Part shown: piece by piece, positions 28,467-29,414 of the stretch
Layout of the letters: every line of letters begins with the position of its first letter
Position numbering within the stretch: the first letter of the stretch is position 1
Assembly: GCF_041248615.1 (NCBI RefSeq)
Contig: NZ_CP158426.1
DNA length: 64,000 nucleotides
Strand: one strand, 5' to 3'
Source of the DNA: Escherichia coli
GTDB lineage: Bacteria; Pseudomonadota; Gammaproteobacteria; Enterobacterales; Enterobacteriaceae
Position numbers and translations under genes: made by a program
Notes under the pieces: model-generated
Database searches by the model: none
Told to the model about the DNA's origin: nothing
The model's input: only the letters and a program-made list of their open reading frames with translations

Positions 28467-28793
28467 TCAGGGACGTGATGGCGTAAAGATAAATTGTCTC
28501 TTCACTCCCTGACGGGGACTATTCTTTTCAAATCTCCATTTCGCCATGGCCTTCACCACTTCATCACGAAACAAATTATGAGGCTCTGAGCGGAGAAAAA
28601 CGATCCGTGTCACAGTCCCGTCAGCACCAATATCGAACTTAACCTCAACCAGCCCCTTGATATAATTTGCTGCAGCATATTCCGGATATCGTGGATACAC
28701 CGTCACTAATTGCCGGGGCTCATCAGCTTTTTGCTGCGAGCATCCCACTGCCAGGGCAGATAACAGAAAAAGTAGTGAAAGGCGTCTTTTCAT
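28467..28793 (-). CDS. lipoprotein with a TonB C-terminal-like domain
   Basis: Lipobox LSALAVGC; VTVYPRYPEYAAANYIKGLVEVKFDIGADGTVTRIVFLRSEPHNLFRDEVVKAMAKWRF aligns with the TonB_C fold signature; AGGA SD. Confidence 0.5.
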   Translation of the reverse strand: MKRRLSLLFLLSALAVGCSQQKADEPRQLVTVYPRYPEYAAANYIKGLVEVKFDIGADGTVTRIVFLRSEPHNLFRDEVVKAMAKWRFEKNSPRQGVKRQFIFTPSRP

Positions 28794-29414
28794 TTTTATT
28801 CCTACGGGTCTTATTCTGACAATATATCCTGTGTTCCAGACTGCCACATCACCACATCCTGTGCCATTATCTGACTCACATTACATACATCGCATCAGGA
28901 TACAGTAGTAGCACTTTCTGTAATACAGCTTCCGGTTTCTTCCACCATCGCACCGGACTGGCGAGCATGAGGGACAAACCCGCGAACCATAAACGCGGTA
29001 AAAACCCGGTGTGCATCGTTTTTGATTATTCCCGCACACTCGCGCAGAAGGAGTTCCCCGTCGGGCTACGGTCTCTGTTAATACGGGAATACGGCGACGA
29101 TACAGCGCATGATATGTCAGGCTTGAATACCTTTATCCGTTAAAAGGGATATCAGTTAAGTTATCCCGTGTAGGGTATAAGCCATTGTCGAGACCACTCA
29201 TTGAATGGTCTCTGCAATAACCGATGTCTTTCCATCAGTCCGCCACCACAAAGAATCTTTTTTGCCATAAGGCAGGAGGTTCATCTTTCAGTGGCTGCCA
29301 GTGTTATTTCCCCACTTACTGGCTTGGGTTGTTTCGCTGTACTGCCGTAACTGGTTTCCCAGAATAAATTCTGGTTTCATTATCAAGCCCACCCGTAGAT
29401 AGGCTTTGTAATGG

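What the first reader, a model, noticed from the sequence alone, without database searches (positions are those of the whole stretch)
28467..28847. Prophage lipoprotein with a TonB C-terminal-like domain at the lambda bor position
Between cos and the lysis cassette, where lambda carries the bor moron, there is a lipobox-containing protein whose mature part aligns with the TonB C-terminal domain (YP-x-YP ... G-x-V-x-VKFD ... DG-x-V ... AM-x-WRF). A TonB-C mimic anchored in the envelope could compete for TonB-box binding on outer-membrane transporters such as FhuA or BtuB, and so block TonB-dependent phages or colicins. That would be a different mechanism from Cor or Llp.
Basis: partly seen in the sequence, partly recalled or inferred. 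Interest (0 to 1): 0.62.

Follow-up and report, generated by a model that had tools for sequence, protein, structure and literature searches.

The report
Prophage lipoprotein with TonB C-terminal domain
An E. coli lambda-like prophage carries a small, selected gene for an outer-membrane lipoprotein that is a stand-alone copy of the receptor-binding tip of the host energy transducer TonB. The gene is already annotated and sits in about 30% of complete E. coli genomes, but its function, most plausibly a decoy that dampens TonB-dependent entry of phages and colicins, has not been tested.

Summary
It has a lipoprotein signal peptide (LAVGC, Ser at +2) and a complete TonB C-terminal domain: Pfam PF03544 at E 3e-13, an ungapped 41% alignment to E. 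coli TonB 150-230, and an AlphaFold model 0.9 A from TonB in the BtuB:TonB crystal.

It lies in the variable stretch between the lysis cassette and cos. It is not a substitute for bor, because phage 21 has both genes.

It is not a new gene. Phage 21, CP-933N, LF82 prophage Perceval and 1615 of 5426 complete E. coli genomes carry it, under names such as "TonB family protein" or "TonB fragment". It is not a tonB remnant either: it has its own signal peptide, dN/dS is 0.12 between its two alleles, and relatives occupy the same slot in Salmonella and Klebsiella prophages.

Published LF82 RNA-seq shows it transcribed in lysogens while the flanking late genes are silent.

I found no functional study. 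The decoy idea has experimental precedent, since periplasmic TonB fragments inhibit TonB-dependent uptake, but it remains inference.

The parts
28467..28793 (-). Coding sequence of the 108-aa TonB_C lipoprotein (stop codon included)
   Evidence: ORF list and translation. PGAP and the phage 21 annotation use the same start. dN/dS is 0.12 against the 70%-identical allele.
28740..28793 (-). Lipoprotein signal peptide, residues 1-18 (MKRRLSLLFLLSALAVGC). Cys18 is the predicted lipidated residue and Ser19 at +2 predicts outer-membrane sorting.
   Evidence: PROSITE lipobox pattern match; the lipobox is conserved in all prophage-borne relatives, with S/T at +2. Lipidation and sorting are inferred.
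28485..28727 (-). TonB C-terminal domain, residues 23-103, equivalent to E. coli TonB 150-230
   Evidence: Pfam PF03544 E 3e-13. TIGR01352 at 48.6 bits, above its 27.1 cutoff. Ungapped 41% identity to TonB. AlphaFold pLDDT of about 97 or higher (10-residue block means). Foldseek hits 1u07_A at E 2e-8 and 2gsk_B at rmsd 0.9 A, TM 0.93.
28800..28803 (-). Ribosome-binding site AGGA, 6 nt before the ATG
   Evidence: Read from the sequence. An RBS is annotated at the same place in phage 21.
28813..28821 (-). Candidate extended -10 promoter TGTCAGAAT (TGTTAGAAT in the 70% allele). This is inferred and not detected by the consensus scan.
   Evidence: It is a conserved island in an otherwise poorly conserved 130-nt upstream stretch. 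The sigma-70 scan found nothing on the - strand. The need for an own promoter follows from the LF82 RNA-seq.
28925..29195 (-). Conserved non-coding lambdoid backbone block that forms the upstream border of the variable slot holding the gene
   Evidence: It is 90-96% identical between alleles whose CDS is 73% identical, with 1-nt indels. It occurs in 499 phage records. Part of it (window 29109-29002) matches lambda 46868-46974. No Rfam match and no unusual folding energy.
27700..27758 (-). cos-proximal homology to the lambda right end (48446-48502), the downstream border of the variable slot
   Evidence: blastn of the window against lambda.
29728..29747 (-). Terminator-like hairpin just downstream of the lysis cassette. 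It could insulate the gene from upstream transcription in the absence of Q.
   Evidence: Terminator scan: 8-bp stem, 6 GC pairs, T-run. Function not tested.

Best explanation
The gene encodes a prophage accessory ('moron') protein: a free-standing TonB C-terminal domain, secreted, lipidated at Cys18 and held by a tether of about 8-15 residues on the inner leaflet of the outer membrane.

Proposed mechanism:
- In that position it sits where TonB-dependent transporters, and incoming group-B colicins and microcins, present their TonB boxes.
- It binds those boxes by beta-strand addition, as TonB does.
- It cannot transmit energy, because it lacks the membrane anchor, the ExbB/ExbD contacts and the proline-rich spacer.
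- It therefore acts as a non-productive competitor that lowers TonB-dependent import. This would give the lysogen partial protection against TonB-dependent phages (T1/phi80 type), colicins and microcins.
- During lytic growth it would also be made from the late transcript.

Shown here: the domain identity, the fold, the lipobox, purifying selection, recurrence in the same phage slot, and lysogenic transcription of a 96%-identical copy.

Inferred: lipidation and outer-membrane sorting, TonB-box binding, the inhibitory effect, and which invaders are blocked.
For: - It is a complete TonB CTD, not a fragment. The ungapped alignment covers TonB 150-230 and includes the C-terminal strand (beta3 in TonB), which I recall pairs with the TonB box. 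Y163, F180, F202, W213, Y215(F) and F230 are kept.
- The model superposes on TonB taken from the BtuB and FhuA complexes at 0.9-1.2 A.
- The mature protein (91 aa) matches the 92-residue TonB fragment of 1u07, the best structural hit.
- All prophage-borne relatives keep a lipobox, S/T at +2, and a constant 15-16 residues from Cys to the P-x-Y-P motif.
- Purifying selection: dN/dS 0.12 at dS 1.47. The gene is intact in 1611 of 1615 carrying genomes.
- It occupies the same slot and the same strand in four different phage backbones in E. coli, Klebsiella and Salmonella.
- It is transcribed in LF82 lysogens at log2 5.0-6.6 while the endolysin, Rz and terminase genes sit at 2.3-4.4. That is comparable with host tonB at 4.2-7.2.
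- Precedent: overexpressed periplasmic TonB domain inhibits TBDT iron import, and TonB-box peptide reduces colicin killing and phi80 infection (PMC9841981, citing Howard 2001 and Tuckman 1992).
- In an AlphaFold fusion with a BtuB N-terminal peptide, exactly the TonB box DTLVVT is modelled as a paired strand.
Against: - There is no functional data for this protein or any relative.
- Three basic TonB residues are replaced by T31, Y39 and Y44: R158 and R166, which I recall as transporter contacts, and R171. Q160 is Y33. Binding specificity may therefore differ from TonB.
- The fusion model has only about 60 pLDDT on the peptide, had no control, and may simply echo learned TonB complexes.
- A constitutive TonB competitor should cost the host siderophore and B12 uptake, yet the gene is in 30% of genomes.
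- The carrier phages have different J receptor-binding types, so the gene is not tied to one receptor.
- It has no match to any PADLOC defence model.
- Some chromosomal relatives are soluble periplasmic or core-like genes. That hints at a housekeeping role for the family.
Confidence: 0.4

Rival explanations
1. It binds a different envelope partner and serves host fitness or virulence, as its neighbour Bor does for serum resistance. The TonB_C fold would be used as an adaptor to peptidoglycan or another outer-membrane protein, strengthening or remodelling the envelope rather than competing with TonB.
For: - The basic residues R158, R166 and R171 of TonB are not conserved.
- Non-phage relatives sit in ordinary chromosomal neighbourhoods, for example next to ahpCF and GST in Gibbsiella.
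- Some relatives have plain signal peptides without a lipobox.
- In phage 21 and Perceval it lies beside bor, and those phages also carry sitABCD. This looks like a host-fitness gene set.
Against: - The closest relatives by sequence and structure are genuine TonB CTDs taken from transporter complexes.
- No other partner is suggested by any data here.
- The TonB-box strand is intact.
Confidence: 0.2
2. It acts mainly in the lytic cycle. Made from the Q-antiterminated late transcript, it would occupy TonB-dependent receptors of the dying cell so that progeny or co-infecting phages are not wasted on debris, in the way Llp of T5 is thought to work.
For: - The gene is always on the late-gene strand, between the lysis and packaging genes.
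- Llp is an outer-membrane lipoprotein that acts at the periplasmic face of FhuA.
Against: - It is transcribed in uninduced lysogens independently of the late genes.
- The carriers have several J types, and none is known here to use a TonB-dependent receptor.
- In this window J is broken by an IS, yet the gene is intact.
Confidence: 0.1
3. It is a spanin or another lysis component, as the PHROG 1267 label 'Rz-like spanin' implies.
For: PHROG 1267 matches at E 2e-40 and carries that label. The protein is a small lipoprotein near the lysis genes.
Against: - A complete Rz plus embedded proline-rich Rz1 lipoprotein pair is present at 29921-30403.
- The protein folds as a TonB CTD.
- It has no C-terminal membrane segment, which a unimolecular spanin needs.
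- It is separated from Rz by more than 1 kb and a terminator-like hairpin.
- It is expressed in lysogens.
Confidence: 0.03
4. It is a functionless remnant of a captured tonB gene, as the database names 'TonB fragment', 'partial' and 'truncated' suggest.
For: Those database names. It lacks the N-terminal two thirds of TonB.
Against: - It has its own start codon, RBS and lipoprotein signal peptide.
- dN/dS is 0.12 across alleles whose synonymous divergence is near saturation.
- It is intact in 1611 of 1615 genomes.
- It is only 41% identical to E. coli TonB, so it is not a recent capture.
- Orthologous lipoproteins occur in Salmonella and Klebsiella prophages.
Confidence: 0.03

Closest known systems
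C-terminal domain of E. coli TonB (residues 150-239; PDB 1U07, 1XX3, 2GSK chain B, 2GRX chain C)
   Same: Same Pfam family and same fold, with 41% identity and no gaps over TonB 150-230. The YP motif, the conserved aromatic residues and the C-terminal strand (beta3 in TonB), which I recall as the TonB-box-pairing strand, are all kept.
   Different: It has no N-terminal membrane anchor, no proline-rich spacer and no means of coupling to ExbB/ExbD. Instead it has a lipoprotein signal peptide and a short tether to the outer membrane. R158, Q160, R166 and R171 are replaced. It scores far below all TonB equivalog cutoffs.
Engineered periplasmic TonB fragments (Howard, Herrmann, Stratilo and Braun 2001, J Bacteriol 183:5885)
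   Same: A TonB C-terminal domain exported to the periplasm without its energy-coupling part. These fragments inhibited TonB-dependent iron import (as cited in PMC9841981). From my memory of the abstract they also inhibited phi80 infection and colicin M killing.
   Different: Those were overexpressed, soluble laboratory constructs of TonB itself. This is a natural, diverged, lipid-anchored protein expressed at a modest level from a prophage. Whether it inhibits anything is untested.
Llp of phage T5 and Cor of phi80/N15/HK022 (superinfection exclusion lipoproteins acting on FhuA)
   Same: These are small phage-encoded lipoproteins of the inner leaflet of the outer membrane that act on the periplasmic face of a TonB-dependent transporter. 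The proposed topology and benefit are the same.
   Different: The fold and family are unrelated: no match in PHROG, PADLOC or BFVD. Llp locks one receptor allosterically. A TonB mimic would compete for a motif shared by all TonB-dependent transporters and by group-B colicins, so it would act broadly but at a cost to nutrient uptake.
Lambda Bor (and Iss), the moron next to the lysis genes
   Same: A small outer-membrane lipoprotein in the same variable region between Rz and cos, and expressed in lysogens.
   Different: No sequence similarity. It is on the opposite strand. In phage 21 both genes are present side by side, so this gene is not a bor replacement.
Database orthologues: phage 21 CPT_21_73 'TonB C-terminal domain protein', LF82/Perceval LF82_160 'TonB fragment', and the CP-933N 'partial tonB-like membrane protein'
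   Same: CPT_21_73 and LF82_160 are 96% identical proteins in the same position. LF82_160 was listed as a moron from RNA-seq. The CP-933N wording appears here as the product name on the 96%-identical phage ev017 gene.
   Different: There is nothing substantive to separate them from this gene. None has been studied functionally in the papers I could search.

Membership tests
TonB_C domain (Pfam PF03544 / TIGR01352) | Profile match above the curated threshold | tested here: met
   PF03544 E 3.2e-13 over residues 33-102. TIGR01352 at 48.6 bits against a cutoff of 27.1.
TonB_C domain (Pfam PF03544 / TIGR01352) | The alpha/beta fold of the TonB CTD: a three-stranded sheet, two helices and a C-terminal edge strand | tested here: met
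   AlphaFold pLDDT of about 97 or higher over residues 28-103 (10-residue block means). Foldseek top hits are all TonB CTDs: 1u07_A at E 2e-8, and 2gsk_B at rmsd 0.9 A and TM 0.93.
TonB_C domain (Pfam PF03544 / TIGR01352) | Conserved YP motif and aromatic core (TonB Y163, F180, F202, W213, Y215, F230) | tested here: met
   Y36, F53, F75, W86, F88 and F103 correspond to these residues. Y36, F75 and W86 are invariant in the 22-sequence family alignment.
TonB energy transducer (NCBIfam TonB equivalogs NF008080-NF008084) | Whole-protein score above the equivalog cutoff | tested here: not met
   46-67 bits against cutoffs of 265-448.
TonB energy transducer (NCBIfam TonB equivalogs NF008080-NF008084) | N-terminal inner-membrane anchor that couples to ExbB/ExbD, plus a proline-rich periplasm-spanning region | tested here: not met
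   The protein is 108 aa. The N-terminus is a cleavable lipoprotein signal peptide, and only 4 residues separate Cys18 from the start of the TonB alignment at A23.
Bacterial outer-membrane lipoprotein | Lipobox with invariant Cys after a hydrophobic signal peptide, and no Asp at +2 | tested here: met
   PROSITE-type pattern match LAVGC, with Ser at +2 and Gln at +3.
Bacterial outer-membrane lipoprotein | Actual lipidation and Lol-dependent sorting to the outer membrane | not testable with these tools
   This needs globomycin or palmitate labelling and membrane fractionation.
Spanins (the PHROG 1267 label 'Rz-like spanin') | An o-spanin is a short proline-rich lipoprotein paired with or embedded in Rz. 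A u-spanin is a lipoprotein with a C-terminal membrane segment. | tested here: not met
   Rz (29921-30403) with embedded Rz1 (29962-30168, lipobox MVAGC, proline-rich) is present separately. This protein is a globular TonB_C domain with no C-terminal hydrophobic segment.
Llp/Cor superinfection-exclusion lipoproteins | Sequence or fold relationship to Llp/Cor | tested here: not met
   No such PHROG match. No PADLOC match. No BFVD structural match at E below 0.001.
Llp/Cor superinfection-exclusion lipoproteins | Blocks infection through a TonB-dependent receptor when expressed | not testable with these tools
   This needs plating assays.
Phage moron | Transcribed in the lysogen independently of the neighbouring phage genes | tested here: met
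   For the 96%-identical LF82_160: log2 5.0-6.6 in five conditions, against 2.3-4.4 for the endolysin, Rz and terminase genes. Not measured for this window's strain.
Phage moron | Own promoter and terminator flanking the gene | tested here: inconclusive
   No sigma-70 consensus hit on the - strand and no canonical terminator after the stop. A conserved extended -10-like TGTCAGAAT at 28813-28821 is only an inference.
Bor/Iss lipoproteins | Sequence similarity to lambda Bor | tested here: not met
   tblastn of lambda and phage 21 Bor against the window gives no significant hit.

The most novel reading that the evidence does not exclude
Temperate phages of Enterobacterales carry a diverged, outer-membrane-tethered copy of the host's TonB tip as a broad-spectrum decoy. 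It would intercept the TonB boxes of transporters and of incoming colicins and microcins right at the outer membrane. One small protein would then blunt a whole class of TonB-dependent invaders (T1/phi80-like phages, group-B colicins, siderophore-microcins, sideromycins) in roughly a third of E. coli strains. This would be a new exclusion principle: mimicry of a host energy transducer, rather than modification or masking of a single receptor.
Probability: 0.35. Interest if true: 0.75.

Novelty: new variant of a known kind. Interest (0 to 1): 0.5.

Why it matters
If the decoy function is real, about 30% of E. coli strains would carry a prophage gene that changes their sensitivity to TonB-dependent phages, colicins, microcins and siderophore-antibiotic conjugates.

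That would also trade against iron and B12 uptake. It bears on phage therapy host range, on colicin- and microcin-based competition in the gut, and on 'Trojan horse' antibiotics.

It would add a mechanism, mimicry of the host energy transducer, to the known phage exclusion lipoproteins Llp and Cor. If the function is something else, the family is still a widespread, selected and unstudied envelope protein.

The test is cheap: one 327-bp gene and standard plating and uptake assays.

Tried and rejected
- **Spanin role.** Rejected: a separate Rz/Rz1 pair exists and the fold is TonB_C.
- **tonB pseudogene or remnant.** Rejected by dN/dS 0.12, the gene's own signal peptide, and its prevalence.
- **Structured RNA or small ORF in the conserved 270-nt upstream block as part of the gene's control.**
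  - There is no Rfam hit.
  - Folding z-scores are -0.34 and +0.10.
  - 1-nt indels rule out coding.
  - The block is general lambdoid backbone, present in 499 phage records including lambda, which lacks the gene. I therefore treat it as the border of the variable slot.
- **Sigma-70 promoter and terminator scan.** Nothing convincing on the gene's strand.
- **Fur regulation.** A GATAATGG upstream matches only about 10 of 19 positions of the Fur box by eye. LF82 expression does not follow host tonB.
- **Link to the carrier phage's own receptor.** The J C-termini differ between carriers, and in this window J is split by an IS.
- **Known defence families.** No PADLOC hit.
- **Viral structural relatives.** No BFVD hit.
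- **Literature on function.** Seven full-text searches found only the LF82 moron table. Howard 2001 (PMC99666) is not held and is cited through PMC9841981.
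Full report
**What is there**

The ORF at window 28467..28847 on the minus strand is real. The GTG at 28847 gives 126 aa. The ATG at 28793, preceded by AGGA at a 6-nt spacing, gives a 108-aa product. PGAP chose this start for a 100%-identical E. coli chromosome, and the curated phage 21 genome uses it too.

The product starts MKRRLSLLFLLSALAVGC|SQQ. That is a basic n-region, a hydrophobic core and a lipobox that fits the PROSITE pattern. Ser at +2 predicts outer-membrane sorting by the standard Lol rule that Asp at +2 retains a lipoprotein in the inner membrane (the rule is textbook knowledge).

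The rest is a TonB C-terminal domain:
- Pfam PF03544 matches at E 3.2e-13.
- TIGR01352 scores 48.6 bits against a cutoff of 27.1.
- The best matches among all PDB sequences are E. coli TonB CTD chains (1U07, 1XX3, 2GSK_B, 2GRX_C) at E about 1e-14, aligned without a gap.
- Residues 23-103 align to TonB 150-230 at 41% identity.

**Fold**

An AlphaFold2 model built on a 22-sequence family alignment has pLDDT of about 97 or higher (10-residue block means) over residues 28-103. Its element order is strand, helix, strand, strand, helix, strand.

Foldseek against the PDB returns only TonB CTDs at the top. These include 1u07_A (E 2e-8), TonB from the BtuB:TonB complex (2gsk_B, rmsd 0.9 A over 79 columns, TM 0.93) and TonB from the FhuA:TonB complex (2grx_C, rmsd 1.2 A). 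TolA domain III appears only at E above 0.1.

The domain is complete. It includes the C-terminal edge strand (KRQFIF, residues 98-103) that aligns with TonB beta3. By my recollection of the complex structures, that strand pairs with the TonB box.

The aromatic residues Y163, F180, F202, W213, Y215 and F230 of TonB are kept as Y36, F53, F75, W86, F88 and F103.

Some residues differ. R158, Q160, R166 and R171 of TonB are T31, Y33, Y39 and Y44. From memory of the 2GRX and 2GSK papers, R158, Q160 and R166 lie at the transporter interface. The binding surface is therefore not identical to TonB's.

**What it lacks**

It has no TonB membrane anchor and no proline-rich spacer. Only four residues (SQQK) separate Cys18 from the start of the alignment at A23. 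It scores 46-67 bits against TonB equivalog models whose cutoffs are 265-448 bits. It is a member of the TonB_C domain family but not a TonB energy transducer.

**Genomic setting**

The window holds an E. coli lambdoid prophage. On the minus strand, in order, are:
- holin (31611-31826), endolysin (30385-30918), and Rz with embedded Rz1 (29921-30403);
- a terminator-like hairpin (29728-29747);
- a 95-aa ORF that matches only the C-terminal part of PHROG 3527;
- a non-coding stretch of about 570 nt;
- the TonB_C gene;
- cos homology (27700-27758), then the terminase small and large subunit genes.

Compared with lambda, homology is limited to part of Rz, a 108-nt backbone block (window 29002-29109, lambda 46868-46974) and the cos end. 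The gene therefore sits in the variable stretch between the lysis cassette and cos.

The window has no bor. Phage 21 has bor on the opposite strand followed by a 96%-identical TonB_C gene. 'At the bor position' is thus approximately right, but the two genes are neighbours and not alternatives.

**It is not new as a gene**
- tblastn finds it in 15 phage records. These are phage 21 ('TonB C-terminal domain protein'), ev017 ('Partial tonB-like membrane protein encoded within prophage CP-933N'), Perceval ('TonB fragment'), the PhiR phages, Lys8385Vzw, Stx1a phages and JLK-2012 (all at 70% identity), and a Klebsiella phage (41%).
- A gene-only blastn finds it in 1615 of 5426 complete E. coli genomes, and 1611 of those cover at least 80% of the gene. 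There are two alleles: 1224 genomes at 95% identity or more, and 391 at 60-80%. It was labelled 'TonB family protein' in 29 of the 30 rows I sampled; the one exception was a partial, 33%-coverage hit under a tail-tip gene.

**It is not a tonB remnant**
- Between the two alleles dS is 1.47 and dN/dS is 0.12.
- A profile-free scan of 1.8 billion representatives finds many 105-135-aa relatives at 38-45% identity that span the whole protein, signal peptide included.
- They come from Salmonella enterica, Klebsiella, Gibbsiella, Rahnella, Erwinia/Pantoea and K. michiganensis/grimontii.
- The Salmonella type (P0038) and the Klebsiella type (P0042 and phage ST13-OXA48phi12.4) again lie between a lysis cassette and the terminase genes, on the late strand. 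Their phages have different packaging modules, HNH plus terminase. JLK-2012 shows the same arrangement.
- The Gibbsiella type is chromosomal, next to ahpCF.
- All prophage-borne members keep a lipobox, S/T at +2 and 15-16 residues from Cys to the P-x-Y-P motif. Some non-phage members have ordinary signal peptides.

**Expression**

The LF82 study (PMC9928086) lists LF82_160 'TonB fragment' of prophage Perceval among genes expressed 8-fold above prophage background in LB.

Its supplementary tables give log2 values of 5.0-6.6 in DMEM, LB and macrophages. The adjacent endolysin, Rz and terminase genes are at 2.3-4.4 and host tonB is at 4.2-7.2. The gene does not follow tonB's pattern.

The gene therefore has its own promoter in lysogens. 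Its orientation means it must also be read from the late transcript during lytic growth (inference).

The consensus scan found no sigma-70 site on its strand. Comparing alleles, the 130 nt before the ATG are poorly conserved except for two islands. One is TGTCAGAAT (TGTTAGAAT in the other allele), which looks like an extended -10 element at 28813-28821. The other is GATAAT at 28867-28872. Both are hypotheses.

**Upstream block**

Window 28925-29195 is 90-96% identical between alleles whose coding sequence is 73% identical. I tested whether it is a regulatory RNA:
- It has no Rfam match.
- Its folding energy is unremarkable on either strand.
- It contains 1-nt indels.
- It occurs in 499 phage records, most of which lack the gene. 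A sub-segment (window 29109-29002) matches lambda 46868-46974.

It is conserved lambdoid backbone and marks the edge of the variable slot.

**Mechanism**

The best-supported reading is a non-productive competitor of TonB:
- A TonB CTD held on a short tether under the outer membrane sits where transporters expose their TonB boxes. Group-B colicins present theirs in the same place after threading through a receptor.
- It could bind those boxes but cannot pull on them.
- The precedent is experimental. Overexpressed periplasmic TonB domain inhibits TBDT-mediated iron import in E. coli, and a TonB-box pentapeptide reduces colicin killing and phi80 infection (PMC9841981, citing Howard 2001 and Tuckman and Osburne 1992). 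From memory, the Howard abstract also reports inhibition of phi80 and colicin M.
- Phage lipoproteins that act on the periplasmic face of a TonB-dependent transporter already exist in Llp and Cor.
- As a weak in-silico check I fused the mature protein through a (GGS)7 linker to the first 20 residues of BtuB. AlphaFold modelled exactly D-T-L-V-V-T, the TonB box, as a paired beta strand. The pLDDT there was only about 60, there was no control, and the network may have learned the TonB complexes.

**Reasons for caution**
- No functional data exist.
- The TonB arginines are replaced.
- A constitutive competitor should tax iron and B12 uptake.
- Carrier phages have different J C-termini. Other carriers' J C-termini are 63-64% identical to this prophage's, and lambda's, a non-carrier shown for reference, is 48% identical. 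The gene is therefore not tuned to the carrier's own receptor.
- It matches no PADLOC model and no BFVD structure.
- The non-phage relatives suggest the family may have another envelope role.

I put the decoy mechanism at about 0.4, another envelope partner or fitness role at 0.2, a mainly lytic-cycle role at 0.1, and the spanin and remnant readings at about 0.03 each.

**Novelty and score**

The gene and its domain are in the databases and in one moron table. The architecture is a lipid-anchored, free-standing TonB tip recurring in one phage slot across genera. That architecture and the decoy hypothesis are, as far as seven full-text searches could show, not described or tested.

I class it as a new variant of a known kind. 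It is a TonB_C family protein, and functionally it is probably akin to the exclusion lipoproteins. I score interest at 0.5: the gene is common, cheaply testable and has a clear precedent, but it is unproven and already annotated.

Noticed in passing
window 7459-8667 (-), with J at 8577-11999 (-) and the J C-terminus at 6771-7484 (-): The tail-tip gene J is interrupted by an insertion carrying a 402-aa transposase ORF, which I judged IS256-family-like by eye. The J reading frame resumes downstream, so this prophage is probably defective, yet the TonB_C gene is intact. In E. coli LH50-c, whose TonB_C region is 100% identical, J is uninterrupted (1302 aa).
   Followed up: partly
window 28925-29195: This non-coding block is 90-96% identical between prophages whose adjacent TonB_C coding sequence is only 73% identical. 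It occurs in 499 phage records; a sub-segment (window 29109-29002) matches lambda 46868-46974. It has no Rfam match and no unusual folding energy. Why a non-coding late-region block is so conserved is unexplained; it may be a recombination junction or a packaging or late-transcript element.
   Followed up: partly
L013 (phage 21, record 21967-24502) and LF82 prophage Perceval: The phages with the 96% allele (phage 21 and Perceval) also carry sitABCD, an iron/manganese ABC importer that I take to be TonB-independent. A TonB decoy together with an alternative metal importer in one phage is suggestive, but sitABCD was not seen in this window.
   Followed up: no
PHROG 1267 (hit for window 28467-28793): The PHROG family that contains this protein is labelled 'Rz-like spanin', category lysis. 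The members are TonB_C lipoproteins, so the label looks like annotation by position and would mislead automated phage annotation.
   Followed up: yes
window 29415-29702 (-): This 95-aa ORF between Rz and the TonB_C gene matches only positions 139-230 of the 233-position PHROG 3527 (unknown function). It is probably a truncated remnant in the same variable region.
   Followed up: partly
window 4233-6038 (-) and 2009-2917 (-): A side tail fibre gene has very long collagen-like G-X-Y repeats (601 aa). A YadA-like protein with three near-identical repeats of about 30 residues lies downstream of lom (6104-6703).
   Followed up: no
window 54781-55103 (+): Three tandem tRNA-Leu(CAG) genes, which look like the host leuQPV cluster, mark host chromosome at this end. 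The integration context in this window differs from strain LH50-c, where the 100%-identical TonB_C region lies in a prophage inserted in ompW next to trp.
   Followed up: no
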